From Acidobacteriota bacterium (GTDB lineage Bacteria; Acidobacteriota; UBA6911; RPQK01; JAJDTT01), in the NCBI GenBank assembly GCA_965217775.1, contig CBDCJH010000002.1:1184001-1248000 (forward strand): 64,000 nt of DNA, read 5' to 3'. Positions 16,086-29,803 of this stretch are shown here, piece by piece. Numbering within the stretch: the first letter of the stretch is position 1; each line of letters opens with the position of its first letter. Made by a program: the position numbers and the translations under genes. The notes beneath the pieces were generated by a model. That model saw only the letters and a program-made list of their open reading frames with translations. It had not been told where the DNA came from and made no database searches.

Positions 16086-17435
16086 ATGACCGACCCATCT
16101 CATGCGGAACAGACGCAAACAGCGCCCCGGGGATTCCGGCCCGTCCTGCGAAAGCTGGGTCCCGGGCTCATCATCTCCGGGTCCATCGTGGGTTCGGGAG
16201 AGCTCATCGCCACCACCACCCTCGGCGCCGAGGTCGGCTTCGTCGCCCTCTGGCTCATCATCCTGAGCTGCGGCATCAAGGTCGTGGTCCAGGAGGAGCT
16301 GGGACGGTACGTGGTGTCCTCCGGAGAGACCGCCCTGCAGGGGCTGAACCGGGTCCCGGGACCCCGGTGGCGGGTATCGTGGGTGGTCTGGTGCTGGTGG
16401 ATCATGACCCTGGGAGTCGTCGTCCAGGGGGGCGGCATCGTCGGGGGGGTCGGTCAGGTCTTCCACCTCTTTCTGCCTCAGATCAGCGGGACCGCATGGG
16501 CCATGGTCGCCGCGGTCACGGTGATGGCGCTTCTGTTCCGGGGGCACTACGGCAGGGTGGAGAAGATCTGTGTGGGGATGGTGGTCAGCTTCACCTTCGT
16601 GACCATCGCCTGCGCCGTCCTGCTGGGGTGGACCCCTTTCTCCCCCACTGCTGAAGATTTCCTCTCCGGCCTGCGGTTTGGCCTTCCCGAGGGAGGGATC
16701 GCCGTTGCTTTCGCCGCCTTCGGAATCACCGGAGTGGGGGCGACGGAGTTGATCATGTATCCCTACTGGTGCCTGGAGAAAGGCTACTCGCGCTTCGTGG
16801 GCCCCCGGGAAGAGGGCGCCGCTTGGGAAGGACGGGCGCGAGGCTGGATACGGGTCATGCAGGCGGATGTGCTCATGGCCATGGTGGTCTACACAACGGC
16901 TACGGTGGCCTTCTACATTCTGGGTGCGGCGGTCCTTCACGGGATGGGGACGGTCCCGGCCGGCTACGGAATGGTCTCCACCCTGTCGAACATGTACACC
17001 TCCACCCTGGGACAGGGGGCCTTCTACCTCTTTCTGGTGGGGGCCTTCTTCGTGCTCTACTCGACTCTCTTCGCCGGCGTCGCCAGCAGTTCCCGGGTCA
17101 TCACGGACTTCCTGCATTTGGTGGGAGTGGTCCGGATCGAGGGCGAGAGCCAGCTCCTGTTCTGGAGGCGGGTGGTGATCGTGGTGGTCCCGACGCTCTA
17201 CGTCGTACTCTACGCATGGGTGGCGCAGCCGGTCTTCATGGTCATCATCGGCGGGATCTTCCAGGCGTGCATGCTCCCCGTCATCAGTTTCTCGGCCATC
17301 TACCTCCGCTATCGCCACACCGACCGGGCGATCCGGCCGAATCTCGCGGTCGACGTGCTGCTCTGGGCCTGCTCCACCGTCATGCTCCTCTTTGCCGTCT
17401 ACTACGTGGCCAAGAGGCTCGGGTTCGGCGCCTGA
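16086..17435 (+). CDS. Nramp-family (divalent metal/APC) transporter
   Basis: LGPGLIISGSIVGSGELI, FGITGVGATEL..YPYW; about 11 TM segments. Confidence 0.88.
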   Translation: MTDPSHAEQTQTAPRGFRPVLRKLGPGLIISGSIVGSGELIATTTLGAEVGFVALWLIILSCGIKVVVQEELGRYVVSSGETALQGLNRVPGPRWRVSWVVWCWWIMTLGVVVQGGGIVGGVGQVFHLFLPQISGTAWAMVAAVTVMALLFRGHYGRVEKICVGMVVSFTFVTIACAVLLGWTPFSPTAEDFLSGLRFGLPEGGIAVAFAAFGITGVGATELIMYPYWCLEKGYSRFVGPREEGAAWEGRARGWIRVMQADVLMAMVVYTTATVAFYILGAAVLHGMGTVPAGYGMVSTLSNMYTSTLGQGAFYLFLVGAFFVLYSTLFAGVASSSRVITDFLHLVGVVRIEGESQLLFWRRVVIVVVPTLYVVLYAWVAQPVFMVIIGGIFQACMLPVISFSAIYLRYRHTDRAIRPNLAVDVLLWACSTVMLLFAVYYVAKRLGFGA

Positions 17436-17457
17436 CGGTCCGTCACATGGGTTGTCC

Positions 17458-17612
17458 CTACGGCACCGGTTTCCTGAAGATGACGATGTGCTGGTGGGGC
17501 AGGAGGTCCAGCGTCTCGACCCTGACCAGGGGATGCGCTGAGATCTGGCGCCAGACCTGATCCTGGTTCATCTTGTGCAGCCGGACGATGGGAACCGCCG
17601 GATCTTCCGCCC
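17458..17612 (-). pseudogene. Displaced 3' end of SAM methyltransferase (variant A, ...IFRKPVP)
   Basis: Homologous to the C-terminus of 27509-28231; cut next to the GGGGACAG motif at 17624. Confidence 0.85.
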
Positions 17613-17928
17613 TGCGGGAAAAAGGGGACAGTCTATTTTTCCGATTCCCGGAACGGGAACGGGTCCAACACATTGAGCTAGCCGCGAAGCGAATCTAGGG
17701 CATTCCCGAGTTCCGTTTCTACGCGATTGCGGATGGGATCAAGCAGCTCTTGCATGGCCGAGCCGCCGGGATTGGACCGCGTCGTCGCGATCCTCGTTCA
17801 AACCTGCTTCCCCTGTTCTCCTGAACCGTCAGAAAAATGAGAAAAGTCCAGAGTCTATTGGGTGGTTCCCGTGATTTGGGTCGTTCGGTGCCGCAGGGGC
17901 AGAATCGACGGTCGGCGATCAGGCGAGT

Positions 17929-18864
17929 CTACGTGACGAAGGCGTGCGAGCGCTGCTCCCGCAAGGAAAACAGCAATCCGCCCATTTGGGGGATGGGGTG
18001 TCGGCGACGACGGTATCGACCTTGCCGCCGATATGTTTCCAGTAGCTGCGCCACCTTCTCTGCCGGCCCGACGGCCAATCCATCCGTCAGAAATCGAAAA
18101 CGCCGGCGAAAAGCTCCGGCACGGGTGAATCCACGTCGCTGGTCCTGATGGAGGATCCACCGGGGGATCGCGGCCTGGTTGTCCCGGGTGGGGACGGCTC
18201 CTCGATAGTGCAAGCGAGCCCGGTAACTGCTGTACACGTCCGTTCCGGGATCCGAGGGGAATAGTTCCTCCAGTGGAATCAGATCTTGATCCTCGCCGGT
18301 GAGCCTCCAGCGGGCCGAACCCCACTTCCACTGCTCGGGTCGTTTGACCAGTCCGGCTCGGATGGCATTGAGTTCCACGTAGAGGATGGCGTCCTGGACG
18401 GCTTCGCTTCCCAAGAGTTCCGGGTTCTTGAAACGATCACTCCAAAAATGGCCTCGCCGTGCAAACTTCAGGTTGAACTACCGAGCATATAGCCCGTTCA
18501 AGTTCTGCATCAGTTTCGACACGTCAAATAGACGCTGGTTGAAAGCCTCCCATTGGGCGGCGGTCCAACCGGCGGTCTTCTCCTCTGCCTGTCGTCCATA
18601 AAGTTTGTCGGCGCTCTCCATCAACTCCTCGCGGGACAAGGGCCGAGGTTTCTCAAAATGGACGATAAAGTGGAAATGATTGCCCATGATCTGGAAAGCG
18701 GCCAAACGACACCGGTAGGCATTGACGTAGAACAACATCATGTCCAGGAATTTGTGCCGGGCTTGGCGGTCTTCAAAGGGGAACCAATCGGGCCGGCCGG
18801 CGACTCGATTGGTGAGGTAATAGAAGGCGGCTTCTGTGCTTTTGTGTCGTGCGGTTCGGGCCAT
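17929..18864 (-). pseudogene. HUH/Y1 (RAYT-like) transposase copy 1, inactivated by an in-frame amber codon
   Basis: 936 nt, colinear with copies 2 and 3; TAG at 18478-18480 where the paralogs have TGG (YAR-W). Confidence 0.9.
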
Positions 18865-18981
18865 GGCCACGGTCCTCAGTGAATCGAATCGGACTCGGTC
18901 TCGGAGGGGAGTCGGTGCGTACCCCTGATGACAACAACGATTCAAAACTGAGAAAGGCGAAAAACGAACGTCCCAAAAAAC

Positions 18982-19038
18982 AGACTGTCCCCTTCCCGCA
19001 CGCACGTCCCCTTCTCACGCACGTCCCCTTCTCGCACG
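18982..19038 (-). repeat. End motif of RAYT copy 1 with tandem GAAGGGGACGTGCG units
   Basis: Minus strand: GAAGGGGAC-GTGCGTGA-GAAGGGGAC-GTGCGTGCGG-GAAGGGGAC-AGTCT. Confidence 0.8.
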
Positions 19039-19119
19039 AAGGAGGGCACCCATGACGGTCCGTGACAAGAGTCGCCGCGGATTTGGACGAGCGTTGGTTC
19101 GCGGCCGACGGCAAGGGAT

Positions 19120-19143
19120 GGCGACCACAAGGGTCGCCCCTGC
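19120..19143. repeat. GTAG-type REP palindrome
   Basis: GGCGACCACAAGGGTCGCCCCTGC; related copy at 27475-27498. Confidence 0.65.
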
Positions 19144-19152
19144 GGGGGTTGT

Positions 19153-19423
19153 CTACCCGGTCGGCTTCTGGAAGATGACGATGTGCTGCCGGGGCAGGAG
19201 GTCGAGCGTCTCCACCCAGACCAGCGGATGCGCTGAGATCTCGCGCCGGACCTGGTCCAGGCTCATCTTGTGGAGCCGGAGGATGGGAACCGTCGGGTCC
19301 TCGGCCCGGTACTCCACCAGGACCAGGCGCCCACCCGGCTTCAGCGCCCGGTGAATTCCCCGGATCATCTCCCAGGGATGAGAGAGTTCGTGGTAGACAT
19401 CCACCAGGAGGGCGAGGTCCACG
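19153..19423 (-). pseudogene. Displaced 3' end of SAM methyltransferase (variant B, ...IFQKPTG)
   Basis: Slightly diverged copy of 27509-27779; ends exactly at the CG that begins the junction motif. Confidence 0.88.
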
Positions 19424-19469
19424 AAAAAAAGGGACCAAAAAAAGGGACAGTCTATTTTTCTCGTTCTTC
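19422..19469 (+). repeat. Approximately 48-bp left-end direct repeat (also 22428-22477, 23620-23667, 25938-25985)
   Basis: CGAAAAAAAGGGAC-C(G/A)AAAAAAAGGGAC-AGTCTATTTTTC(T/A)CGTT(T)CTTC seen four times. Confidence 0.9.
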
Positions 19470-19752
19470 CCATGGCCGGGTCCAGAACCTTAAGATTCAG
19501 CACCGCCTCGGCCGGGTCCAACTTGAGCAGTTCAGCTTTCCGTTGTTGCTGGGGCCGTCTATCGTCGCTGAGTCGCTCGGCTTTGTCCTCGAACGCCTTG
19601 AGACGCTCTTCAGCCAGCGGTTTCAGGGTCTGCTCAACGATCAGATCCACCAGCTCCTGGGGCGTGAAAAAGCTGCCGCAGTCCTTGCGGGCATAGGGAT
19701 TGGGACGAATGGAGATCTTGCCGTCACCTTTACGGATCGGTTCCTGCTCTAG

Positions 19753-21823
19753 CCCGAGTTTACCGTATTGGAGATCAGGATAAAGATAAGTTGTTTTTTT
19801 GCAAAGAGATAGGGCAGGTGTCCCGTATGACCTACGGAGCCGAACCAAGGGGTCGGATGGCGTGTTTTTCGAGTCCCAGGACTTCGTACATCGTGCGCTG
19901 TTCGTCCGTCATCTGCGAGAGCGTCGTCCGGAGTTCGGGCTCGCCGCCCTCCTCCCGCGCTGGATACAGCACGTCGACCTCGCGGATCCCGCTGAGCGCG
20001 TCCAGCAGCGCGGGGATCGAATCCTGCACGCCGTGGCGGCTCAGTTCCCGCTGCAGCAGGCCGCACAGCATCAGCGCCAGCACGCAGCAGAACACATGCA
20101 CCGCGATCTTCTGGTCCGTCCAGTGGTATTGTGGCCGAATGGCGATGCAGTTGCTGTCCTTGAGCTGCCGGAAGGCGCTCTCGACATGATGTTGCGCGCG
20201 GTAGCCGCGCACCAGCTCGGCATCGCTCCAGCCCGCCTGGTCGGTGAACAGCAGGGTCTTGCCCAGTAACCTGCGCTGAAGCTGCTCCCAGGCGCGCCGC
20301 TGGAAGCGATAATTCACCTTCGGCAAGCCGTCCACCTCACGCACCTGAACGGCGAACAGGTCCCGCATGTGCCGGGCCCGCAGCCAGCCGTCGACCTTCT
20401 TGCGCGTGCCGGCCAGGCTCGGCTTGCGTCCCCCCCGGATCTTGCCCTCGCGCCAGCGCCACAACTGCCACTGCAGGGCGCGCAGGTGCTGGCGCCGCTT
20501 AGCGATCTCGCGCAGCAGCGTCCGACATTGGGCGTCGAACAGCGCTTGGTTCCAAGTCACCAGCACCGTGCGCTGGACGCCGAACACTTTGGACTCGGTG
20601 CGGTAGGAGCGCACGCCGGCCAGCCCGTCGGCCTCCAGCGAGCGCATCTGGTCCGCAGGCACGGCCAGCAGGTGCGGATGCTGGGTGGGGACCAGCGAGC
20701 CGATGAAGTGGAACGGGCTGCGCTCGACCCAGTCCAAGTTCGGGCGCGAGTTGTTGCCCTTGTCGAAGACCAGGGTGACCGTCTCGGTCCCGGCGGCGAT
20801 CTCCCGGTAGCGCCGGGCCAAGTCGGCGGCGAGGCTTTGGAACGTTGGCGCGTCGGGGCGGTTGCCGGGATAGGTGCGATGCAGCAGGGGCAGGCGGAAG
20901 TCGGCCGTGACCAGCAGGGCCACGCCGATGATGCGCAACGACCTGCGGCCCTCCTTGCTGTGACCGCGCTGAGCCAGTTGGGAGCGCTGGTTGAAGGAAT
21001 TGATGTAGGTAAAGAAGTTAGTGGCGTCAAACAGCACTTGGCCCAGGTCGAGGCGGAACTCGCGGGTCATGGCGGCAACGATGTCGCGTTCAATGGCGGG
21101 GAGGGCGGGGACGGGGACGCGGTGCATATGGTCCCAGAAGCGCTGGCTGGTGAGCTGGTTGGAGCGCAGGGGGAGCAGGCGGCGCAGGGCGGTGGAGTTG
21201 AACCAACGGGCGAGGCTGGCCTTGGAGCCGGGGGCGAGGCAGCGGTTGAGGACGGCGGCGAGCAAGTAGGTGCCGACGGAGGGACCGGAGCCGCGCTTGG
21301 GGAGATGGCGGTCGATGTGCTCGACCAACTGCAAGCGGCGGGCGAGGGTAAGCAGGGCGGCCGAGGCCCCGAATTCGCGCACGACCGCCTGGAGCGGCTG
21401 GGCGGGGGCGGGGGCGGCGCGGAGCTTCTCGATGATCTTGTCGGCGCGACCGAGATAGGTCTGGGAGACGATCTTGGGTTTGCCGTCGACGCGCTTGCAG
21501 ACGCGAGCGTAGTAGTAGGGGCGGCCCCGGATGATCTTCTTGACGAGGCTGGCCATATATTTAGGTCATACAATAGCGTATGGATCCGACCGGTGTCAAG
21601 CGATATATCCGTAAAAACTTCATTGATATATGGAATAAGAGTTCTGGAGAAGACCTGACAAATCCCACCATATGTTAGGTCATACAAAAATCAATGGGAC
21701 GAGAGCAAGGGCCTCGGCCGGGCTGGGTGATAAACCCTTCCTTATCAATAACTTGAATCTGAATCGTCGGTCTGCCCACGCGCTAGGGCAATGCTATGCT
21801 GGTGCGAACACGGTAAAGTCGAG
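19753..21823 (-). mobile_element. IS1634-family insertion sequence
   Basis: Inverted ends CCCGAGTTTACCG / CTCGACTTTACCG; CTAG duplicated at 19749-19752 and 21824-21827; internal TAGGTCATAC motifs at 19825 (inverted), 21562 and 21676. Confidence 0.88.
19832..21556 (-). CDS. IS1634-family DDE transposase
   Basis: LFDATNF, RGHSKE, VFDKGNNS, VESAFRQLK...IRPQYHWTDQKI..HVF. Confidence 0.92.
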   Translation of the reverse strand: MASLVKKIIRGRPYYYARVCKRVDGKPKIVSQTYLGRADKIIEKLRAAPAPAQPLQAVVREFGASAALLTLARRLQLVEHIDRHLPKRGSGPSVGTYLLAAVLNRCLAPGSKASLARWFNSTALRRLLPLRSNQLTSQRFWDHMHRVPVPALPAIERDIVAAMTREFRLDLGQVLFDATNFFTYINSFNQRSQLAQRGHSKEGRRSLRIIGVALLVTADFRLPLLHRTYPGNRPDAPTFQSLAADLARRYREIAAGTETVTLVFDKGNNSRPNLDWVERSPFHFIGSLVPTQHPHLLAVPADQMRSLEADGLAGVRSYRTESKVFGVQRTVLVTWNQALFDAQCRTLLREIAKRRQHLRALQWQLWRWREGKIRGGRKPSLAGTRKKVDGWLRARHMRDLFAVQVREVDGLPKVNYRFQRRAWEQLQRRLLGKTLLFTDQAGWSDAELVRGYRAQHHVESAFRQLKDSNCIAIRPQYHWTDQKIAVHVFCCVLALMLCGLLQRELSRHGVQDSIPALLDALSGIREVDVLYPAREEGGEPELRTTLSQMTDEQRTMYEVLGLEKHAIRPLGSAP

Positions 21824-22544
21824 CTAGGAGCCTCTCGTAAATCGATCCGAGTTGTTGCACCGACATGTCGCGGAAGTTGACGAAGTGCCTTCGCCCCTCC
21901 CTTCCCTGGGCATGGCTGAGGGCATGGATGATGGGAGCGATGGTAGCGTCGGGGAGGCGAGCCTGTTCCAGCAGCGGCGAGGCACCAGCCGCAAATAGCC
22001 CCCCGTTGTAGGGGGGCAGTCCAAGGGACGGATCGCCCTGGTCGATGATTCTAAAGAGATTGACCAAGCGGTCGTAGTAGGTGGTGACGACGGTCGAAAA
22101 GACGTCCAGGGACCCCATCCTGCGAGCGATGTCGTCCCGGACATGCTTGCGCAATCCGTAGTCATCGTAACGCTCGTCGTTGACCGGTAACAGATTCCGG
22201 TCCTCAGCATAGAGGACAAAGAGCAACCGATAGAGGAAGATCAAGGCTGCGTGGCGAACCTGGGGCAGGTCCTTGCCCGTGGCATTGGCCATCGCCTCCA
22301 CGAGGTGGGGAAAGGCGCTCTCGAAGACGACCCCAGACAGATCTTGGGCAACCTGCTCCTCATAGCGTTTCCCCTCCACCAAGGCGTGTTCCAGGAACGT
22401 GCCGGTTGCACCTTCCCGGAGGGTGAACGAAAAAAAGGGACCGAAAAAAAGGGACAGTCTATTTTTCTCGTTTCTTCGTGAACATCACGAAGCCAGGCGG
22501 CGAATCTGACATCACTGCAAAAAAAGCGGGTACCATTACGGACT

Positions 22545-23567
22545 GTGGCGGACACGTTACGGTTCGGTCCAGACACCATGAATGCACCGTGGGGGCTGGA
22601 CTCCAGGCTGAAGCTTGTTGTGTTGGCATGCGACTTTTTCAAGGCCGAAAAAATCGCAGCACACCATGCGGCCATTGGTAAGGAACTGCCGAAGCAGGGA
22701 AGTCCGACACCGCTTGCCGTAGCCGACTTTCTCCATTACCTGCAAGTCAAGAAGGCGTTCCCAAAGGCGCCGAATCCCTTGCATGTAGCGCTAATCCTGG
22801 AGCGGATGGTCTCCGCGGGAGTTCTCGTCCACGCGGGGAGCGGCACGGCATTCGCGGGACTCCAGAACCACTACATCTACTTCCTGACAGCGCACGAAGC
22901 ACGACGGGGTCTGTTCCGATTGGTGCCCGTGCTTGGCCCAGAGTACCTCTATAGACTATGTGAGCCAAGCTTGGTCCATATCACGGGAACCAGAGCGGGC
23001 GCTGTGGTCGCCGGAACCGGCCTCGTCGTCGACACGCGCCACGTCCTTACCTGTCGCCATGTCGTATCCGACATGACGGTGGATCCGCGGCAGACGTTTC
23101 AGGGGAGGGAATACGTGGTCGACCCCGGCTCGATCCACCGACACGCCGAGGTTGACGTGGCGGTCGTCCGCGTGTGGGGGGCGCCGTTGTCTCCGCTGAA
23201 CGGAGCCCTCATGCAAGCTCCCATTGTAGCAAAGACCGTTTATACGCTTGGCTACCCGAAGCTTCCCGGCCTCCGAGATGCGTCCGTGACGATGCAGCCG
23301 GGAGCAGTGACGAACGAATCGGTCACTTCATTGGCGGGGGAGACGCTGTTCCTCTACTCGGCTATTTCCAGACCAGGGAACAGCGGCGGACCAGTCGTGT
23401 CCGAGGACGGCTACGTGGTGGGCCTCTCTATCGTGGATGCCACTGGCCAGTACCGGACCAACGAGGCATTCTCACCGCACTATGCAGGCATCCCCGCGCA
23501 GGTCGTCGTCCAGGCGGTGAAGGATCTCGGTTTGGGCATCGAATTGCCGTTCGAGCCCTACGAGTGA
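22545..23567 (+). CDS. Trypsin-like (S1) serine protease with uncharacterised N-terminal domain; start may be ATG 22578
   Basis: Catalytic triad LTCRH, VDVAVV, GNSGGP; no signal peptide. Confidence 0.88.
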   Translation: MADTLRFGPDTMNAPWGLDSRLKLVVLACDFFKAEKIAAHHAAIGKELPKQGSPTPLAVADFLHYLQVKKAFPKAPNPLHVALILERMVSAGVLVHAGSGTAFAGLQNHYIYFLTAHEARRGLFRLVPVLGPEYLYRLCEPSLVHITGTRAGAVVAGTGLVVDTRHVLTCRHVVSDMTVDPRQTFQGREYVVDPGSIHRHAEVDVAVVRVWGAPLSPLNGALMQAPIVAKTVYTLGYPKLPGLRDASVTMQPGAVTNESVTSLAGETLFLYSAISRPGNSGGPVVSEDGYVVGLSIVDATGQYRTNEAFSPHYAGIPAQVVVQAVKDLGLGIELPFEPYE

Positions 23568-23824
23568 CGCACTCAGCAGGTCTCCTGGCTCAGCGTAGGC
23601 CCCTCCGCTTCGATGTTAGCGAAAAAGGGACCGAAAAAAAGGGACAGTCTATTTTTCACGTTTCTTCAGTTTCATTCAGAGACGGGAAGTGTGCTGGTTT
23701 TCGTGAGGTTCCTTCGCCTTTCCTGGTTCTGAGTCGTTGTTGTCATCAGAGGCAGACGTGAGAGGTGAGAGGTGCGAACCCGAACCGACTCCCTCGCGAG
23801 TCCGATTCACCGAGGACCGTGCCC

Positions 23825-24760
23825 ATGCCCCGAACCGCGCGACACAAGAGCAAGGAAGCCGCCTTCTATCACCTCACCAATCGAGTCACCGGCTGGACCG
23901 ATTGGTTCCCATTCGAAGACCGGCGAGCCCGTCGCAAACTCCTGGACATGATGTTGTTCTACGTCAGTGTCTACCGGTGTCGTTTGGCCGCGTTTCAGAT
24001 CATGGGCAATCACTTCCACTTCGTCGTCCATTTTGAGAAGCCTCGCTCCTTGTCCCGCAAGGAGTTGATGGAGAGCGCCGACAAGCTTTATGGGCGAAAG
24101 GCAGAGAAGAAAACCGCCGATTGGACCGTCGCCCAATGGAAGGCTTTCAACCAGCGTCTCTTTGACGTGTCGAAACTGATGGCGAATGTGGATGGGATCT
24201 ATGCCCGGTGGTACAACCGCCAGTTTCGACGGCGAGGGCATTTTTGGAGTGAACGTTTCAAGAACCCGGAACTATTGGGAACCGAAGCGGTCCAAGACGC
24301 CATTTTTTACGTGGAACTCAACGCCGTCCGGGCCGGACTGGTCAAGCGGCCCGAGCAGTGGAAGTGGGGCTCAGCCCGCTGGAGACTGTTCGGCAAAGAT
24401 CAAGACCTGATTCCACTGGAGGAACTGTTTCCCTCGGATCCCGGAACGGACCTGTACAGCAGTTACCGGGCTCGTTTGTATTATCGGGGGGCCGTCCCGA
24501 CCCGACCCAACCAGGCTGCGATCCCCCAGTGGATCCTCCATCAGGAGCAGCGACGTGGATTTACCCGTGCCGGAGCCTTTCGCCGGCGTTTGCGGTTTCT
24601 GACGGACGGGTTGGCCGTCGGTCCGGCCGAGAAGGTGGCGCAATTGCTGGAGACGTATCGGCAACAAGGTCGATATCGGCGTCGCCGACACCCCATTCCC
24701 CAACTGGGCGGAGTGATGTTTTCCCTGCGGGAGCAACGCTCGCACGCCTTCCTATCGTAG
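23825..24760 (+). CDS. HUH/Y1 (RAYT-like) tyrosine transposase copy 2
   Basis: YHLTNR, MGNHFH (HUH), GHFWSERFK, YVELNAVRAGLV..PEQWKWGS. Confidence 0.92.
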   Translation: MPRTARHKSKEAAFYHLTNRVTGWTDWFPFEDRRARRKLLDMMLFYVSVYRCRLAAFQIMGNHFHFVVHFEKPRSLSRKELMESADKLYGRKAEKKTADWTVAQWKAFNQRLFDVSKLMANVDGIYARWYNRQFRRRGHFWSERFKNPELLGTEAVQDAIFYVELNAVRAGLVKRPEQWKWGSARWRLFGKDQDLIPLEELFPSDPGTDLYSSYRARLYYRGAVPTRPNQAAIPQWILHQEQRRGFTRAGAFRRRLRFLTDGLAVGPAEKVAQLLETYRQQGRYRRRRHPIPQLGGVMFSLREQRSHAFLS

Positions 24761-24989
24761 ACTCGCCTGATCTCCGTTTGTCGATTCTGCCACCGCGGCA
24801 CCGACTGACCGAGATCACGGGAAACGCCCAATAGACTGAATTGTCCTGTTGAATGCGTGGAAAGTCCTTCGGACTTCCATCCATTTGCCAGAGGTTCACC
24901 GTTCTGCTTCCTGCTTCCGGGTGGGATTCTCAAGACTCGCGACACGCAACACAGAGCCGGAAAAAGGGGACAGTCTATTTTCTTTTCCC

Positions 24990-25455
24990 CACCGCAACGG
25001 GGTTTTCTCCTCAACGGCGATCCGGCGGGCCGGACGCTGTTTACCTATCGATCTGCCGACTTGGTTCGCTGGAGCCAGGCGCCGGCGTTGTCCTTCGCCC
25101 GCTACGGCTATCGATCGGCTCCCGTGAGCCGGGTGGAGGAGGCCCATACCTCCAATGGGAACTGGGACCGCGGCAATGTCCTCGTTTCCACCTACCTCCA
25201 GTGGCACGGAGGTCCCGACTTGAAATCCACCACCATGGACGTCGGGCTTCTGGTCAGCAACGACGGCCTCCATTTTCGAGAGCCTGTCCCCGATTTTTCC
25301 TGGATCCCCCGGGGCGCTCCAGGGACCTGGGAAGGGGGAGGCACCTGGGGCGTATCGTTCCTCAACGTGGACAACGAGACGCGCATCTACTATGGCGGCA
25401 CCAACAGCCTGGCGGCACTCGCGACCGGGGGCGTCGGGTTGGCGACGATCAAACG
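24990..25455 (+). pseudogene. Internal fragment of a beta-propeller hydrolase-like gene
   Basis: RSADLVRW, VSNDGLHF, TRIYYGG, GVGLAT; lacks native start and stop; bracketed by junction motifs. Confidence 0.7.
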
Positions 25456-25552
25456 CGGTTGGAAGGTGGCGTACGGTTGGAAGGTGGCGTAGGAAGGTGG
25501 CGTAGGAAGGTGGCGTAGGAAGGTGGCGTATTCAAGACTGTCCCTTTCTGTT
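25456..25552 (+). repeat. Tandem GGAAGGTGGCGTA x5 abutting an inverted GGGACAGTCT
   Basis: Direct reading; second copy with 3 units at 27352-27417. Confidence 0.9.
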
Positions 25553-25560
25553 CTCGGAGG

Positions 25561-25937
25561 CCCGTCATCAGTTTCTCGGCCATCTACCTCCGCTACCGCC
25601 ACACCGACCGGGCGATCCGGCCGAGTCTAGCGGTCGACGTGCTGCTCTGGGCCTGCTCCACCGTCATGCTCCTCTTTGCCGTCTACTACGTGGCCAAGAG
25701 GCTCGGGTTCGGCGCCTGACGGCCCGTCACATGGGTTGTCCCTACGGCACCGGTTTCCTGAAGATGACGATGTGCTGGTGGGGCAGGAGGTCCAGCGTCT
25801 CGACCCTGACCAGGGGATGCGCTGAGATCTGGCGCCAGACCTGATCCTGGTTCATCTTGTGCAGCCGGACGATGGGAACCGCCGGATCTTCCGCCCGGTA
25901 CTCCACCAGGACCAGCCGCCCGCCCGGTTTCAGGGCG
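25561..25937. pseudogene. Duplicated Nramp 3' end (+, to 25719) and methyltransferase variant A 3' end (-, 25742-25937)
   Basis: 25561-25896 matches 17277-17612 at a constant offset of 8284 with a few substitutions. Confidence 0.9.
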
Positions 25938-26150
25938 CAAAAAAAGGGACCAAAAAAAGGGACAGTCTATTTTTCTCGTTTCTTCAGTTTCATTCAGCGT
26001 TTCTTCAGTTTCATTCAGAGACGGGAAGTGTGCTGGTTTTCGTGAGGTTCTTTCGCCTTTCCTGGTTCTGAGTCGTTGTTGTCATCAGAGGTGAGAGGTG
26101 CGAACCCGAACCGACTCCCTCGCGAGTCCGATTCACCGAGGACCGTGCCC

Positions 26151-27086
26151 ATGCCCCGAACCGCGCGACACAAGAGCAAGGAAGCCGCCTTCTATCACCT
26201 CACCAATCGTGTCACCGGCTGGACCGATTGGTTCCCCTTCGAAGACCCGCGAGCCCGTCGCAAACTCCTGAACCTGATGTTGTTCTACGTTAGTGTCTAC
26301 CGGTGTCGTCTGGCCGCATTTCAGATCATGGGCAATCATTTCCACCTCGTCGTCCATTTTGAGAAGCCTCGCTGCTTGTGCCGCAAGGAGTTGGAGGAGA
26401 GCGCCCGCAAGCTTTATGGGCGAAAAACCGATGTGGAAACCGGCGGTTGGACCGACGACCAGTGGGAGGCTTTCAACCAGCGTCTGTTTGACGTGTCGAA
26501 ACTGATGGCGAATGTGGATGGGATCTATGCCCGGTGGTACAACCGCCAGTTTCGACGGCGAGGGCATTTTTGGAGTGAACGTTTCAAGAACCCGGAACTA
26601 TTGGGAACCGAAGCGGTCCAAGACGCCATTCTTTACGTGGAACTCAACGCCGTCCGGGCCGGACTGGTCAAGCGGCCCGAGCAGTGGAAGTGGGGCTCAG
26701 CCCGCTGGAGACTGTTCGGCAAAGATCAAGACCTGATTCCACTGGAGGAACTGTTTCCCTCGGATCCCGGAACGGACCTGTACAGCAGTTACCGGGCTCG
26801 TTTGTATTATCGGGGGGCCGTCCCGACCCGGCCCAACCAGGCTGCGATCCCCCGGTGGATCCTCCATCAGGAGCAGCGACGTGGATTTACCCGTGCCGGA
26901 GCCTTTCGCCGGCGTTTGCGGTTTCTGACGGACGGGTTGGCCGTCGGGCCGGCAGAGAAGGTGGCGCAATTGCTGGAGACGTATCGGCAACAAGGTCGAT
27001 ATCGGCGTCGCCGACACCCCATTCCCCAACTGGGCGGAGTGATGTTTTCCCTGCGGGAGCAACGCTCGCACGCCTTCCTATCGTAG
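26151..27086 (+). CDS. HUH/Y1 (RAYT-like) tyrosine transposase copy 3
   Basis: Near-identical to copy 2, including about 200 bp of both flanks. Confidence 0.92.
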   Translation: MPRTARHKSKEAAFYHLTNRVTGWTDWFPFEDPRARRKLLNLMLFYVSVYRCRLAAFQIMGNHFHLVVHFEKPRCLCRKELEESARKLYGRKTDVETGGWTDDQWEAFNQRLFDVSKLMANVDGIYARWYNRQFRRRGHFWSERFKNPELLGTEAVQDAILYVELNAVRAGLVKRPEQWKWGSARWRLFGKDQDLIPLEELFPSDPGTDLYSSYRARLYYRGAVPTRPNQAAIPRWILHQEQRRGFTRAGAFRRRLRFLTDGLAVGPAEKVAQLLETYRQQGRYRRRRHPIPQLGGVMFSLREQRSHAFLS

Positions 27087-27351
27087 ACTCGCCTGATCTC
27101 CGTCCGTCGATTCTGCCACCGCGGCACCGACTGACCGAGATCACGGGAAACGCCCAATAGACTGCATTGTCCTGTTGAATGTGTGGAAAGTCCTTCGGAC
27201 TTCCATCCATTTGCCAGAGGTTCACCGTTCTGCTTCCTGCTTCCGGGTGGGATTCTCAAGACTCGCGACACGCAACACAGAGCCGGAAAAAGGGGACAGT
27301 CTATTTTCCCCGCTCATTCATATCTGAAGGCATCTCAGGATTGAGCGCGGA

Positions 27352-27417
27352 CGGTTGGAAGGTGGCGTTGGAAGGTGGCGTTGGAAGGTGGCGTTTTCAA
27401 GACTGTCCCTTTCTGTT
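27352..27417 (+). repeat. Tandem TTGGAAGGTGGCG x3 abutting an inverted GGGACAGTCT
   Basis: Same element as 25456-25552 with a different unit length and number. Confidence 0.88.
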
Positions 27418-27508
27418 TGCGTGTTTGCGTGACTGAATTGGACGGGCGTTGGATCGCAGCCGACGGTAAGGGACGGCGACCACAAGGGCCGCCCGTACGG
27501 GAGGTGTC

Positions 27509-28231
27509 CTACCCGGTCGGCTTCTGGAAGATGACGATGTGCTGGCGGGGCAGGAGGTCGAGCGTCTCCACCCAGACCAGCGGATGCGCCGAGATCTCGC
27601 GCCGGACCTGGTCCTGGCTCATCTTGTGGAGCCGAAGGATGGGAACCGCCGGGTCCTCGGCCCGGTACTCTACCAGGACCAGGCGCCCACCCGGCTTCAG
27701 CGACCGGTGAATTCCCCGGATCATCTCCCAGGGATGAGAGAACTCGTGGTAGACGTCCACCAGGAGGGCGAGGTCCACGCTCTCGGGAGAGAGACCAGGG
27801 TCCTGGATGGTCCCTCGGATGGGTTTCACATTGCCGATTTTTCTCTGGGCGGAGCGGCGGCGGATGATCTGGAGCATCTCGTCCTGAATGTCTACCGCCA
27901 GCACCCGCCCCCCGGATCCCACCCGCTTGGCCAAACGAAAAGAAAAGTAGCCGGATCCGGCCCCGATGTCGGCGATGGTCATTCCCGTCAAGGTTCCCAG
28001 AGCGTCCAACAGCGCCTCAGGGTCCTCTTCAACCTCCCGTTCGGGGCGTTCCAGCCAGGAGGCGCCCTGGTGTCCCATGACGCGGGAGATCTCACGGCCC
28101 AGGTAGAACTTGCCGGTTCCGTGGGGATCCGTGCTGGTCCGGTGCTCGTAGCGAGGCGGTTCCGCACCGGAAATGCCCTGAAGCAGCAACGGAAGGATGC
28201 AGGCAAGGAGCGGAAATGGAGTCGATCTCAT
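27509..28231 (-). CDS. Class I SAM-dependent methyltransferase with signal peptide
   Basis: IADIGAGSGYF, AVDIQ, VDVYHEF, LKPGGRLVLVEY; N-terminus MRSTPFPLLACILPLLL. Confidence 0.9.
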   Translation of the reverse strand: MRSTPFPLLACILPLLLQGISGAEPPRYEHRTSTDPHGTGKFYLGREISRVMGHQGASWLERPEREVEEDPEALLDALGTLTGMTIADIGAGSGYFSFRLAKRVGSGGRVLAVDIQDEMLQIIRRRSAQRKIGNVKPIRGTIQDPGLSPESVDLALLVDVYHEFSHPWEMIRGIHRSLKPGGRLVLVEYRAEDPAVPILRLHKMSQDQVRREISAHPLVWVETLDLLPRQHIVIFQKPTG

Positions 28232-28426
28232 GGCAAGCCATTTTATCAGCAGACGGGATGCCAGGAGGTTGAACAGAGTTGGGAATTGGCCGTAGAGGGG
28301 CTGTTCGATAGTCCGGCGTCCGGTTGATTTGGCCAGGCCCCTGCGGTATAAAATTCCCAATACGGCCGGTAAAAGGCAGGCTCGGAACGGGAGCCGCGAG
28401 CGGTTTTTCGAATCGGGAGGAATTCC

Positions 28427-29803
28427 ATGCTGAGACTCGACGCCGACAAGCCCGTATCCTTCTGCGACGGTTTCAACCGGCGCGACTTCTTCCACGTCGG
28501 GGCGCTGTCCGGTTTGGGACTCAGTCTGGTCGATGTCTTCGGCCTGAAGGCCCTGGGGTCCGTCGATGCCGAGAAGGACCCCATGAACTGCATCTTCCTC
28601 TTCCTGGTCGGCGGTCCCAGCCAGTTGGACACCTGGGACATGAAGCCGGATGCGCCCGCCGAGATCCGGGGTCCGTTCAAACCCATTCCCACCAACGTGG
28701 ACGGGATCCGGATCAGCGAGATCTTCCCGCGGATGGCGGGGCACGCCGACAAGTTTTCACTGGTTCGGAGCCTCTACCACGATGCGGCTGCGGTGCATGA
28801 CACGGGACATCAGATGATGCAGACCGGCCGCCTTTTCCAGGCCGGCGTGGAGCACCCGCACGCCGGCTGCGTCATCAACAAGCTCCGGGGCCCGCGTGGG
28901 GCCCTGCCGGCCCACGTCCTGATCCCCCGTCCCATCGGCAAGACCGGTGGCAACATGCCCCACGGCCAGGACGCCGGGTACCTGGGCCGGGGGCTCGACC
29001 CCTTTGTCCTCAACAGCGACCCGTCGCTGCCCGATTTCAAGGTGCGGGACCTCCTGCCTCCCGACTACATCTCCGCAAGTCGTCTGAACCGGCGCCGTAA
29101 CCTGAGAGAGATCGTGGACGGGGTGGTGGGCAATTTCGAGAACAGTGACGACGCCCGGCTGCTGGATTCCAGTTTCCATCAGGCCTATACCCTGATTTCC
29201 TCGTCAAGCGCCCGGGAGGCGTTCGACATCAACCTGGAAGACAATGCGGTCCGAGACCGTTACGGCCGCAACAAGTTCGGACAAAGCTGCCTGCTGGCCC
29301 GGCGGCTGGTGGAGCGGGGCGTTCGGTTCGTGACGGTCAACATGTTCGAGACCGTCTTCAACGAGATCACGTGGGATATCCACGGATCGGCCCCCTTCAG
29401 CCCCATCAGTTGCTACTCGGATCTGGTCGGTCCCATGTTCGACAATGGTTTCTCGTCCCTGGTGGAGGACCTGCAGGACCGCGGGATGTTGGAGAACACG
29501 CTGATCGTGGCCATGGGCGAGTTCGGCCGCACTCCCAAGATCAATCCGGCCGGCGGCCGCGATCACTGGCCCGGTTGCTGGTCCACGGTTTTCGCCGGCG
29601 GAGGCATCCAGGGCGGACGGGTCGTGGGCGAGTCGGATGAGATCGGAGCCCTGCCCAAGGATCGTCCGGTGACCCCGTCAGAGGTCGTGGCCACCGTCTA
29701 TCACCTGCTCGGCGTGGACCTGGAGACGGAGCTGGACGGGCCCGGCGGACGGCCCGTGCCCATCGTCGATTACAACGTCGAGCCCATCTACGAGTTGATC
29801 TGA
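28427..29803 (+). CDS. DUF1501 domain protein
   Basis: RRDF, GGPSQLDTWDMKP, LLARRLVERGV, WDIH, GEFGRTP, GRDHW. Confidence 0.92.
   Translation: MLRLDADKPVSFCDGFNRRDFFHVGALSGLGLSLVDVFGLKALGSVDAEKDPMNCIFLFLVGGPSQLDTWDMKPDAPAEIRGPFKPIPTNVDGIRISEIFPRMAGHADKFSLVRSLYHDAAAVHDTGHQMMQTGRLFQAGVEHPHAGCVINKLRGPRGALPAHVLIPRPIGKTGGNMPHGQDAGYLGRGLDPFVLNSDPSLPDFKVRDLLPPDYISASRLNRRRNLREIVDGVVGNFENSDDARLLDSSFHQAYTLISSSSAREAFDINLEDNAVRDRYGRNKFGQSCLLARRLVERGVRFVTVNMFETVFNEITWDIHGSAPFSPISCYSDLVGPMFDNGFSSLVEDLQDRGMLENTLIVAMGEFGRTPKINPAGGRDHWPGCWSTVFAGGGIQGGRVVGESDEIGALPKDRPVTPSEVVATVYHLLGVDLETELDGPGGRPVPIVDYNVEPIYELI

What the first reader, a model, noticed from the sequence alone, without database searches (positions are those of the whole stretch)
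17458..27508. Candidate HUH/Y1 (RAYT)-driven DNA-capture locus: cargo stitched together at GGGACAGTCT motifs
Seen: within 10 kb there are ten GGGACAGTCT motifs, and nearly every switch between unrelated DNA segments falls at one. The order is MTase 3' end, RAYT1, MTase 3' end, type IIG R-M fragment, protease gene, RAYT2, propeller fragment, Nramp/MTase ends, RAYT3. Several cargo pieces are cut mid-gene, and no integrase or serine recombinase is present. Known: RAYT/TnpA-REP HUH enzymes nick ssDNA at or near REPs and are usually single-copy and domesticated; from memory, GGGG[AT]CAG-like motifs flank some Y1 subclasses. Inference: these Y1 enzymes mobilise themselves and join foreign DNA at the motif, building an integron-like or Helitron/IS91-like capture array.
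Basis: partly seen in the sequence, partly recalled or inferred. Interest (0 to 1): 0.88.

Follow-up and report, generated by a model that had tools for sequence, protein, structure and literature searches.

The report
Y1 transposon hotspot with motif-bounded cargo
Three copies of a little-studied tyrosine (HUH) transposon have piled into one spot between two genes, each duplicating a few hundred bases of the target, and foreign gene pieces are joined in exactly at the transposon's short end motif.

Summary
There are ten GGGACAGTCT motifs (0.16 expected), three Y1/HUH genes, and unrelated segments that switch at motifs. One error: 2.1 kb of the "R-M fragment" is an IS1634-family DDE insertion sequence.

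The element is a known, barely studied class: TIRYT/"TIRtron", a RAYT-like Y1 gene between inward-facing GGGGWSAS repeats.

The Nramp and MTase "ends" are not cargo. They are four copies of the target (J1-E1-J2-E2-J3-E3-J4). The site is empty in four congeners. At two other loci, empty sites in relatives show that this element duplicates about 90-245 bp of target on insertion (146-345 bp between the window's J copies). That is unlike IS200/IS605, and I found no report of it.

True cargo sits in E2: a type IIG fragment, an orphan protease and a 0.5-kb fragment, each joined within about 25 nt of a same-strand motif. In G007 the same two sites hold 7.4 kb of defence-like genes instead of Y1. In 4 of 4 Y1-less motif clusters examined, synteny breaks between congeners fall at motifs.

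So "DNA is joined at the motif" is supported. That Y1 catalyses it, and the integron/IS91 analogy, remain inference. Recombination between the repeats by the host is the main rival.

The parts
16086..17435 (+). Nramp-family transporter gene, the left border of the hotspot. Its last 159 nt are part of target copy J1.
   Evidence: Pfam Nramp 53 bits; syntenic in 7 congener loci
17277..17620 (.). J1: target copy 1 (Nramp 3' end, short intergenic, MTase 3' fragment 17458-17620 on the minus strand, about aa 352-410).
   Evidence: 336 nt at 98.8% to J3; alignment to empty sites
17625..18991 (-). E1: TIRtron copy 1, gene on the minus strand. End motif(+) at 17625-17634, Y1 pseudogene at 17935-18864 (1 in-frame TAG), end motif(-) at 18982-18991. 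It belongs to a different Y1 lineage (86-87% nt identity to copies 2 and 3).
18987..19038 (.). 17-nt tandem array (2.8 copies) abutting the E1 end motif.
   Evidence: TRF
19046..19423 (.). J2: target copy 2 (Nramp stop codon, intergenic with GGCGACC..GGTCGCC hairpin, MTase 3' fragment aa 323-411). G006-like allele.
   Evidence: 345 nt at 93.6% to J4; alignment
19420..25544 (+). E2: composite TIR-bounded unit, running from the LE unit to the RE motif(-) at 25535-25544, with cargo inside.
19420..19470 (+). LE unit a (about 50 nt; motif at 19444-19453; 13-nt AAAAAAAGGGACC duplication).
19471..19748 (-). Type IIG R-M gene fragment, distal part (..GSFFTPQELVDLIV..), cut at LE unit a.
   Evidence: open frame
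19749..21827 (-). IS1634-family insertion sequence (DDE transposase ORF 19832-21556) splitting the R-M fragment. No motif at its ends.
   Evidence: NF033559 285 bits; 99% copies in G000, G006 and G007; termini
21828..22426 (-). Type IIG R-M gene fragment, proximal part (MmeI helicase-spacer; ..LGSIYERL), cut at LE unit b.
   Evidence: Pfam MmeI_hel; PADLOC DrmMI / REase_MTase_IIG, about aa 274-440 of about 1350
22427..22477 (+). LE unit b (motif at 22451-22460).
22478..23616 (+). Protease segment: apparently complete trypsin-like serine protease gene at 22545-23567. Orphan accessory DNA.
   Evidence: Trypsin_2 74 bits; no DNA match in 8 congeners; 1 weak hit among the 300 other phylum genomes searched; exact Logan contig 22448-23651
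23617..23668 (+). LE unit c (motif at 23641-23650).
23825..24760 (+). Y1/HUH TIRYT gene copy 2 (311 aa, intact).
24967..24976 (+). m(+): same-strand motif 210 nt downstream of Y1. With the RE(-) it forms an inverted dimer.
24977..25475 (+). 0.5-kb unassigned gene fragment (open frame of 168 aa) between m(+) and RE.
25479..25544 (-). 13-nt tandem array (4 copies) plus RE motif(-) at 25535-25544.
25561..25930 (.). J3: target copy 3 (Nramp last 156 nt, intergenic, MTase 3' fragment about aa 348-410). Its junction with LE is shared with G002 and G007.
25935..27409 (+). E3: TIRtron copy 3, the ancestral insertion of the clade. LE unit d (motif 25959), 21-nt tandem duplication 25977-26018, Y1 gene 26151-27086 (intact), m(+) 27293, 13-nt array 27354-27395, RE motif(-) 27400-27409.
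27435..28744 (-). J4: target copy 4, continuous with the intact SAM-dependent methyltransferase gene (27509-28744), the right border of the hotspot.

Best explanation
The interval is an insertion hotspot between convergent Nramp and methyltransferase genes. It is occupied by three TIRtron-type transposons, each a 311-aa Y1/HUH 'TIRYT' gene bracketed by inward-facing GGGGACAG terminal repeats. They alternate with four copies of the target: J1-E1-J2-E2-J3-E3-J4. In this genus, insertion of this element leaves a long direct duplication of target DNA (about 90-245 bp at the loci checked against empty sites; 146-345 bp between the window's J copies), so the truncated MTase and Nramp ends are target copies, not cargo. 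E3 is the old insertion shared with G002, G003 and G007. E1 is a second lineage and now a pseudogene. E2 is a paralogue of E3 that also carries accessory DNA: an internal piece of a type IIG R-M gene (later split by an unrelated IS1634-family IS), an orphan protease gene and a 0.5-kb fragment. Each piece is joined next to a same-strand copy of the element's roughly 50-nt end unit. The motif unit acts as a recombination joint. Most likely the Y1 enzymes bind it and nick and rejoin single-stranded DNA a few to a few tens of bases away with relaxed cleavage specificity, as shown in vitro for the relative TnpA-REP. That would give (i) transposition of the whole TIR-bounded unit, (ii) tandem micro-duplications beside the motif, and (iii) exchange or insertion of whatever lies between two same-strand sites. 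Shown here: anatomy, family membership, empty and occupied states, target duplications, breakpoint positions, micro-duplications. Inferred: that Y1 catalyses the joints, that ssDNA is the substrate, and how the long duplication arises (two strand-specific end joinings about 200 nt apart, followed by fill-in).
For: Motif enrichment: 10 against 0.16 expected in the window, 105 against about 15 in the genome. In 11 of 11 G000 copies, motif(+) lies on the low-coordinate side and motif(-) on the high-coordinate side whatever the gene strand. The G023 copy pair (1378 nt, 99.7%) starts and ends exactly at inverted GGGGACAG. Protein: HUH and YVELN invariant; best fold match TnpA-REP 4er8, E 2.3e-5, then IS200, IS608 and ISDra2; 10 of 11 copies intact, median dN/dS 0.34. 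Literature: TIRYT TIR consensus GGGGWSAS / GGGG[AT][CG]A[CG]. Hotspot states: empty in G001, G004, G005 and G006; one Y1 in G002 and G003; other cargo in G007. Target duplications checked against empty sites: 196 bp (L040, G000), 202 bp (same locus in G006, independent site), 88-209 bp (L039). Five of 11 G000 copies have flank repeats of 88-196 nt. Every convergent motif pair with flank repeats encloses a Y1 gene. Cargo joints: four LE units in direct order. G007 homology breaks 9-10 nt after the LE motif and about 13 nt before m(+), swapping Y1 for 7.4 kb of PDC-S26, PDC-S11, rve and PDC-M30A/B genes. Y1-less clusters L053-L056: in 4 of 4, segments between or beside same-strand motifs are absent, relocated or reordered in congeners, and motifs also sit at the joints in G002, G003 and G006. 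Micro-duplications: 21 of 48 Y1-proximal motifs against 50 of 3000 random windows; they differ between orthologous copies. TnpA-REP precedent for low-specificity cleavage and tandem products.
Against: No experiment or read evidence links Y1 to any joint. No long flank duplication was found around copies in four genomes of other genera (G023, G011, G017, G028), including the two near-identical pairs, so the duplication may be lineage-specific or not intrinsic to transposition. Six of the 11 G000 copies show no flank repeat of 88 nt or more. The J1~J3 (98.8%) and J2~J4 (93.6%) similarities are interleaved, which simple successive insertions do not explain; unequal crossing-over, gene conversion or movement of a composite unit must be invoked. 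The G007 PD-(D/E)XK cargo gene has no motifs around it in G004 or G005. The copies in G000 are 84-95% identical, so nothing has moved very recently here. The four Y1-less clusters were chosen for having several motifs, and I measured no matched control for how often intergenic sites are synteny breaks. The repeated 30-50-nt units could themselves be substrates for host recombination. No target consensus was found.
Confidence: 0.6

Rival explanations
1. Passive repeats plus host recombination. The Y1 enzyme moves only its own element. The dispersed 30-50-nt end units and the 150-350-nt J copies are simply substrates for RecA-dependent unequal crossing-over, gene conversion and deletion. The cargo arrived by unrelated horizontal transfer into an already repeat-rich, tolerant intergenic site.
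For: The ABAB similarity of the J copies (J1~J3 98.8%, J2~J4 93.6%) looks like unequal exchange or conversion. G000's MTase allele is G006-like, showing allelic replacement at this locus. The four LE units are one local sequence type. The traced cargo gene is not motif-flanked elsewhere. Module reordering between repeats is what ectopic homologous recombination produces. IS elements (IS1634, rve) also sit in these islands.
Against: Homologous recombination cannot create a first joint between a motif unit and unique foreign DNA, yet such joints lie 9-25 nt from motifs at both ends of several unrelated segments. Micro-duplications end at GGGAC and begin at GTCT, and are 25-fold enriched at Y1-proximal motifs. 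Target duplications at new sites need an insertion mechanism.
Confidence: 0.22
2. One reading: a dedicated capture array, integron-like or IS91/ISCR/Helitron-like, in which the RAYTs stitch successive foreign pieces, including the MTase and Nramp ends, at the motif.
For: There are four same-strand end units with different DNA between them. The content between the same two sites is alternative in G007. Cargo is partly defence-related. Same-strand motif arrays with variable modules exist elsewhere.
Against: The MTase and Nramp pieces are target duplications present at every occupied state of the locus. Two junctions are an IS1634 insertion. There is no integrase, attI or attC, and no Y2 Rep or helicase; the protein is a Y1 of the TnpA-REP fold. 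Several 'cassettes' are non-functional internal gene fragments. Only this one of the 11 Y1 loci in G000 carries extra cargo.
Confidence: 0.13
3. Assembly artefact: repeats were mis-joined, so the array does not exist as drawn.
For: The region is rich in 50-nt to 1.3-kb repeats. The public data I could lay are short contigs that break at the LE units and cannot bridge them. The genome has 7.5% estimated contamination.
Against: Single-contig genomes of G002, G003 and G006 show the same architecture (target fragment - LE - Y1 - RE - target) at this and other loci. Contigs identical to the assembly cover R-M fragment/LE, LE/protease/LE and the 0.5-kb fragment at single-copy depth. The copies differ enough (86-95%) to be assembled apart.
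Confidence: 0.03

Closest known systems
TIRYT / TIRtron (Di Nocera et al. 2013, PMC3733652; = subclass 2.1 of Quentin et al. 2018, PMC6006769)
   Same: A RAYT-like Y1/HUH protein longer than classical RAYTs, with a C-terminal extension. The gene is flanked by inverted repeats carrying GGGGWSAS (here GGGGACAG). The ends have no hairpins. Moderately abundant solo, dimeric and clustered TIR copies are present. The phyla match (Planctomycetes and Acidobacteria are named in these papers; the nearest named homologues here are Acidobacteriota MAG proteins).
   Different: In the passages I read, mobility was not shown, and the words 'target site', 'duplication' and 'direct repeats' do not occur. New here are the 11 copies per genome, the empty/occupied comparisons, the long target duplications, the motif-adjacent cargo joints and the micro-duplications. 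The HTH-like nature of the C-terminus could not be confirmed.
RAYT / TnpA-REP and REPtrons/REPINs (Nunvar 2010; Ton-Hoang 2012, PMC3333891; Bertels 2017, PMC5581495)
   Same: Same fold (4er8 is the best structural match). The gene sits between inverted copies of a dispersed repeat. TnpA-REP cleaves ssDNA near its binding site with low specificity and makes tandem products in vitro, which fits the micro-duplications here.
   Different: RAYTs are typically single-copy and vertically inherited (abstract and passages), with GTAG-tagged hairpin REPs. Here the gene is multicopy, shows presence/absence polymorphism, and has ends without hairpins. NCBIfam REP_Tyr_transpos scores 47-48 bits against a cutoff of 80.
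IS200/IS605 (IS608, ISDra2)
   Same: Y1 HUH catalytic core (Pfam Y1_Tnp above cutoff; fold matches). The proposed exchange of a segment lying between two same-strand cleavage sites is the IS608 'peel and paste' logic.
   Different: IS200/IS605 elements have no terminal inverted repeats, make no target duplication and use subterminal hairpins on one strand. Here the ends are inverted, there are no hairpins, and the target duplications are long.
IS1634 / IS1549 (IS4-related DDE elements)
   Same: The bacterial elements I could find reported to create long, variable-length direct repeats on insertion (titles only, seen in the reference list of PMC2266710).
   Different: A DDE transposase with unrelated chemistry. 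An IS1634-family copy happens to sit inside E2, but it shows no long duplication there and does not lie between the long repeats that flank the Y1 elements.
Integron cassette arrays; IS91/ISCR and Helitron capture
   Same: Functional resemblance only: same-orientation short sites separating unrelated, variably present gene modules.
   Different: No IntI tyrosine recombinase, attI, attC or Pc promoter. No Y2 Rep or helicase, and no ori/ter ends. Many segments are gene fragments rather than promoterless complete genes.

Membership tests
TIRYT / TIRtron | Y1 transposase with HUH motif and catalytic Tyr, RAYT-like | tested here: met
   H63/H65 and Y162-x-E-L-N invariant in 26 sequences; Pfam Y1_Tnp 28-30 bits against cutoff 23; fold match to 4er8, E 2.3e-5
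TIRYT / TIRtron | Gene flanked by terminal inverted repeats carrying GGGGWSAS | tested here: met
   11 of 11 copies have motif(+) ... motif(-). GGGGACAG fits GGGG[AT][CG]A[CG]. G023 unit boundaries fall at the inverted motifs.
TIRYT / TIRtron | Ends are not typical REP/IS200 hairpins | tested here: met
   ssDNA folds of 7 ends: z-scores -0.97 to +2.1
TIRYT / TIRtron (subclass 2.1) | C-terminal extension resembling an HTH (Bac_DnaA_C / HTH_23 / HTH_28) | tested here: inconclusive
   An extension of about 110-130 aa exists and is conserved. It has no Pfam hit at E up to 10, Atlas scores below 0.9 and model pLDDT below 60 after residue 228.
RAYT (REP-associated tyrosine transposase) sensu stricto | Passes the NCBIfam REP_Tyr_transpos equivalog cutoff | tested here: not met
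   47.4 and 48.1 bits against cutoff 80
RAYT sensu stricto | Flanked by GTAG-tagged palindromic REPs; single copy per genome | tested here: not met
   No hairpins; 11 copies in G000 and 3-11 matches in congeners
IS200/IS605 | No inverted repeats, no target duplication, subterminal hairpins on the top strand only | tested here: not met
   Inverted ends; 88-209 bp duplications verified against empty sites; no hairpins
Integron | IntI tyrosine recombinase with attI and attC-bounded cassettes | tested here: not met
   The Pfam and NCBIfam scans of the main ORFs in 16-29 kb (10 and 6 ORFs, not every ORF) found only Y1_Tnp and an IS1634 DDE transposase. The sites have no attC-like structure.
IS91 / ISCR / Helitron | Two-tyrosine (Y2) HUH Rep, with a helicase in Helitrons, and rolling-circle ori/ter ends | tested here: not met
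   The alignment shows the single conserved catalytic Tyr motif (YVELN) of Y1 enzymes, 311 aa, no helicase domain
IS1634 family (for the 19749-21827 insert only) | IS1634-type DDE transposase between short inverted ends; multicopy | tested here: met
   NF033559 285 bits against cutoff 100; CTAGCCCGAG.../...CTCGAGCTAG-type ends; 99% copies

The most novel reading that the evidence does not exclude
TIRYT enzymes run a genome-wide, HUH-driven cassette system. The GGGGACAG unit is a strand-specific recombination site at which any DNA lying between two same-strand sites (defence genes, toxin-antitoxin modules, metabolic genes, or the Y1 gene itself) can be excised, exchanged and re-inserted. The autonomous TIR-bounded element transposes by joining its two 5' ends to target strands about 200 nt apart, leaving target duplications of hundreds of base pairs. 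That would be a single-strand, tyrosine-HUH analogue of the integron and a new transposition geometry for Y1 enzymes.
Probability: 0.3. Interest if true: 0.85.

Novelty: new variant of a known kind. Interest (0 to 1): 0.68.

Why it matters
In the library I could search, TIRYTs and TIRtrons are named in only three records, which are two works, and their mobility has never been demonstrated. This genus offers natural before-and-after comparisons: empty sites, independent insertions a few hundred bases apart, and alternative contents between the same two sites. Three results would matter. First, a Y1/HUH element that leaves long target duplications (about 90-245 bp against empty sites) does not fit the peel-and-paste mechanism of IS200/IS605 and calls for a different strand-joining geometry. 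Second, a short motif that marks synteny breakpoints and boundaries of accessory modules, including defence genes and PIN toxins, would make these repeats organisers of the flexible genome rather than passive REP-like clutter. Third, the system is directly testable with oligonucleotides, a tyrosine mutant and a marked mini-element. If host recombination explains the joints instead, the finding reduces to a well-documented transposon hotspot with an unusual target duplication, which is still new for this family.

Tried and rejected
Hairpin ends: folding 7 end regions as ssDNA gave nothing better than shuffles, so I dropped a REP/IS200-type hairpin model.

Target consensus: the host bases at 6 base-resolved junctions plus the window junctions show no shared sequence. 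An apparent preference for C rests on ambiguous boundaries, and I do not claim it.

Long duplications outside the genus: none around 7 copies in G023, G011, G017 and G028. This counts against generality.

Further flank repeats in congener loci are not all independent. L002 and L003 are orthologues of the L039 locus, L005 is the same place as L044, and L017 and L018 are the window locus.

Y1-less TIR frames with flank repeats in G000: none; all 38 pair/repeat rows listed enclose a Y1 gene.

G002's 7.5-kb insert at the L039 locus is not TIR-framed. G005's 12-kb block there is flanked by repeats of 338, 202 and 116 nt, but it has a truncated Y1 and only one clear end motif. Both are suggestive only.

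Source of cargo: the protease has no DNA match in 8 congeners and 1 weak protein hit among the 300 other phylum genomes. The R-M fragment matches only G008, at 75%. G007's PD-(D/E)XK gene occurs in G004, G005 and G008, and in G004 and G005 (the two contexts read) it has no motifs around it.

Internal cassette boundaries in G007's cargo: motif-like sites are at chance level (8 against 8.6).

The PDB search by sequence was not significant (4er8, E 0.38); only the fold search was. The C-terminal domain has no Pfam hit and Atlas scores below 0.9.

Public reads: only Logan contigs could be laid. They break at the repeats, so neither the long-range order nor circular junctions could be tested. Joints such as 25711->27518 and 17432->19053 come from contigs 5-10% diverged from the window, which are empty-site forms of co-occurring relatives rather than excision products. 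The best holders may be the window's own source, so they are not independent support.

A scan of metagenome contigs for the exact LE unit returned 0 matches.

No matched control was run for how often ordinary intergenic sites are synteny breakpoints, and the four Y1-less clusters were picked for having two or more motifs.

Supplementary files of Di Nocera 2013 (its TIRYT list and alignment) and Quentin 2018 (Table S1) were closed and may hold relevant details. I saw papers only as search listings, abstracts and 'find' passages, plus section 20 of PMC6006769. The IS1634 and IS1549 papers I saw as titles in a reference list only.

G016 is an unpublished genome.

Full report
OBSERVATION. GGGACAGTCT occurs ten times in the 64-kb window, all between 17625 and 27409, against 0.16 expected; 0 of 100 shuffles reached ten. 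Three ORFs of about 311 aa match Pfam Y1_Tnp (28-30 bits, cutoff 23) and, below its cutoff, NCBIfam REP_Tyr_transpos (47-48 bits against 80). Window 19749-21827 is an IS1634-family insertion sequence whose 574-aa DDE transposase scores 285 bits on NF033559. It has 99%-identical copies elsewhere in this genome and in G006 and G007. Its two junctions are the only segment switches without a motif. Copy 1 of the Y1 gene carries an in-frame TAG. The motif is genome-wide: 105 copies against about 15 expected, in clusters.

WHAT THE ELEMENT IS. BLAST and alignment of the 11 near-full copies in the genome (84-95% nt identity) give a canonical unit. It consists of a motif unit, about 200 nt of conserved leader, the Y1 gene (true start MPRTARHKS), a 3' region in two variants, and a motif unit on the other strand. 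In 11 of 11 copies the motif reads inward from both sides, whichever strand the gene is on. These are therefore terminal inverted repeats.

In a genome of another family (G023), two copies share 1378 nt at 99.7%, and the shared block starts at AAGGGGACAG and ends at the inverted CTGTCCCC. In G011 two copies share 1259 nt at 100%. This is evidence for recent mobility or transfer.

The protein keeps the HUH histidines and the YVELN tyrosine in all 26 aligned homologues. Its model (pLDDT 72) matches TnpA-REP bound to a REP hairpin best (4er8, E 2.3e-5, TM 0.65 on the target), then IS200, IS608 and ISDra2 transposases. Ten of 11 copies are intact, with median dN/dS 0.34 over 55 pairs. The ends do not fold into hairpins (z-scores -0.97 to +2.1).

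The literature has a name for exactly this. TIRYTs are tyrosine transposases flanked by terminal inverted repeats with the consensus GGGGWSAS, in 'TIRtrons' (Di Nocera 2013). They are equated with subclass 2.1 of the Y1 superfamily, which has a C-terminal extension (Quentin 2018) (passages and one section read). GGGGACAG fits that consensus. Only three records, which are two works, in the searched library use these terms. In the 2013 paper the words 'target site', 'duplication' and 'direct repeats' do not occur.

THE LOCUS. The orthologous Nramp-MTase interval in seven congeners gives the history.

- G001, G004, G005 and G006 have the two genes directly convergent, with no motif. These are empty sites.
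- G002 and G003 have an MTase 3' fragment, the LE unit, one Y1 gene, m(+), RE(-), then the full MTase.
- G007 has the same ends but 7.4 kb of other genes in between.

The junction of the MTase fragment with the LE unit is the same in G000 (J3/E3), G002 and G007, so that insertion is ancestral to the clade. The right-hand junctions differ in each genome.

In G000 the interval reads J1-E1-J2-E2-J3-E3-J4. Each E is bounded by motif(+) ... motif(-), and each J is a copy of the target (Nramp 3' end, intergenic, MTase 3' end). The truncated MTase and Nramp 'ends' are therefore target duplications and not captured cargo. Pairwise similarities are:

- J1~J3: 336 nt, 98.8%
- J2~J4: 345 nt, 93.6%
- J3~J4: 183 nt, 87%
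- J1~J2: 146 nt, 86%

The interleaved J1/J3 and J2/J4 similarities are not explained by simple successive insertions. Either a composite unit (E1-J2-E2, bounded by inward-facing motifs) moved with a 336-bp duplication, or unequal exchange or conversion between J copies occurred. I cannot tell which.

LONG TARGET DUPLICATIONS ARE A PROPERTY OF THE ELEMENT IN THIS GENUS. Five of the 11 G000 copies have direct flank repeats of 88-196 nt just outside the motif clusters. I checked two further loci against empty sites in relatives.

- At L040, 196 nt that are single-copy in G007 and G005 flank the element in G000. G006 carries an independent insertion about 250 nt away with its own 202-nt duplication.
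- At L039, the overlap is 88 nt (G006, G001 and G000's own contig C1) to 209 nt (G004).

Junctions were read to the base, and no target consensus emerged. Every convergent motif pair in G000 that has flank repeats encloses a Y1 gene.

There is evidence against generality. No such repeats surround copies in G023, G011, G017 or G028, and six G000 copies lack them. IS200/IS605 elements make no target duplication. The bacterial precedents I could find for long variable duplications are the DDE elements IS1634 and IS1549 (titles only).

CARGO AND SAME-STRAND SITES. E2 contains four same-strand copies of one local end-unit type of about 50 nt (19420, 22427, 23617, and 25935 of E3). Between them lie:

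- an internal piece of a type IIG R-M gene, cut at both ends and later split by the IS (..LGSIYERL | IS | ..GSFFTPQELV..);
- an apparently complete trypsin-like protease gene with no DNA match in 8 congeners and 1 weak hit among the 300 other phylum genomes;
- the Y1 gene.

A 0.5-kb unassigned fragment sits between m(+) and RE.

The G007 comparison is the sharpest evidence. Homology with G002, G003 and G000-E3 runs through the LE motif plus 9-10 nt. It then stops and resumes about 13 nt before m(+). In between, G007 has PDC-S26 (PD-(D/E)XK), PDC-S11, an rve transposase and a PDC-M30A/B pair instead of Y1, with no internal motif units beyond chance. Two contents therefore alternate between the same pair of same-strand sites.

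I then examined four motif clusters with no Y1 gene nearby.

- L054: a 1.7-kb segment with an M19 dipeptidase gene and two same-strand motifs is absent from G001 and G006. It begins 12 nt from a motif, and the empty sites have no motif.
- L055: modules that include a DUF4143 gene and a PIN gene occur in different orders and copy numbers in G000, G001, G002, G003 and G006. Same-strand motif units sit at the joints in the four of these genomes whose sequence I read: G000, G002, G003 and G006.
- L053: the segments between three same-strand motifs are individually present or absent in congeners.
- L056: a 328-nt segment ending at a motif lies 4.6 kb away from its position in four relatives, and the DNA just beyond the motif is a multi-copy module.

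That makes 4 of 4. However, I chose these clusters for having several motifs and ran no control for ordinary intergenic sites. The one cargo gene traceable elsewhere (G007's PD-(D/E)XK gene, in G004 and G005) is not motif-flanked there.

MICRO-DUPLICATIONS. Exact tandem duplications (period 7-30) lie within 70 nt of 21 of 48 Y1-proximal motifs and 7 of 45 other motifs. They occur at 0 of 12 members of an unrelated hairpin family and in 50 of 3000 random windows. Upstream units end in GGGAC and downstream units begin with GTCT. Orthologous copies differ in these arrays, and TRF lists them in the window. This looks like repeated cutting and rejoining or template slippage at the motif. TnpA-REP in vitro cleaves ssDNA near its bound REP, needing little more than a CT dinucleotide, and its strand transfer builds tandem units.

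MECHANISM. Shown: a TIR-bounded Y1 element, long target duplications, site re-use, motif-adjacent breakpoints and micro-duplications. Inferred: the Y1 enzymes (ten intact genes acting in cis and in trans) bind GGGGACAG and nick and rejoin ssDNA nearby. Because the motif is on opposite strands at the two ends, each strand would be cut at its own 5' element boundary. Joining those two 5' ends to target 3'-OH groups about 100-350 nt apart, followed by fill-in, would give the long duplication. Two cuts at same-strand sites would excise or exchange the DNA between them, as IS608 does between its ends.

The main rival is that the repeats are passive and host homologous recombination does the shuffling. 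That rival explains reordering and the J-copy pattern. It does not explain first joints to unique DNA, or the half-site-anchored micro-duplications.

ASSEMBLY. Only short Logan contigs could be laid. Contigs identical to the window cover 21798-22461, 22448-23651 and 24953-25508 at single-copy depth, but they stop at the repeats. The same architecture in single-contig relatives argues against an artefact.

VERDICT. The family is known (TIRYT/TIRtron). The reading of the MTase and Nramp pieces as cargo is wrong, and the reading of the motif as a DNA-joining site is supported comparatively but not mechanistically.

Noticed in passing
window 19749-21827: Complete IS1634-family insertion sequence (574-aa DDE transposase) with 99%-identical copies at G000 C2:64027-66105 and in G006 and G007. 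This suggests it was recently active and shared between species. No long target duplication was seen at this copy, although the family is known for them.
   Followed up: partly
genome-wide, e.g. G000 C2:179036, 825764, 1445674 (none in the window): Twelve copies of a perfect hairpin, GGGGGACA-GTCT-TGTCCCCC, contain the 10-nt motif but form a separate family. They have no tandem micro-duplications (0 of 12). This may be a head-to-head fusion of two end cores, or an unrelated REP-like element.
   Followed up: partly
window 19080-19153 and 27435-27508; also the G006 empty site: An intergenic insert of about 75 nt with the hairpin GGCGACC-ACAAG-GGTCGCC is present in some alleles of the Nramp-MTase spacer and absent in others. 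There are 18 such hairpins genome-wide, several of them next to motif clusters.
   Followed up: partly
L054 1902-2070 and 5352-5501; L055 231-396 (G000 C2, about 3.328 Mb and 2.850 Mb): A repeat of about 150-170 nt is present in dozens of copies at 85-99% identity in all five congeners searched. It looks like a MITE and often sits beside the motif-bounded modules.
   Followed up: no
G000 contig C1:43244-47498: The 144-kb second contig carries a 93-94% identical copy of the chromosomal L039 locus in the empty state. Either a plasmid holds a diverged duplicate of chromosomal genes, or the contig comes from a second strain (estimated contamination is 7.5%).
   Followed up: no
window 27435-28744 compared with G006, G002, G003 and G007: G000's intact MTase and its spacer are of the G006 type, although G000's Nramp gene groups with G002, G003 and G007. 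This indicates allelic replacement by recombination at the hotspot border.
   Followed up: no
L019 6946-13604 (G007, orthologous hotspot): The cargo is defence-flavoured: PDC-S26 (PD-(D/E)XK nuclease), PDC-S11 (DUF4268), and a PDC-M30A/M30B pair (DUF5131, 339 bits), plus an IS3-type rve transposase. The last roughly 180 nt before m(+) is another multi-copy repeat.
   Followed up: partly
G000 C2:5635604-5635789 and C2:4665981-4666208: Two further, shorter Y1_Tnp ORFs (240 and 225 aa open frames; 39 and 31 bits) are unrelated to the 311-aa family. They may be classical IS200- or RAYT-type genes. Their flanks were not examined.
   Followed up: no
L052 (G005 C1:3145500-3161500): At the L039 hotspot, G005 has a block of about 12 kb with a truncated Y1 gene, an IS1634-type ORF and other ORFs. 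It is flanked by direct repeats of local DNA of 338, 202 and 116 nt (90-93% identity).
   Followed up: partly
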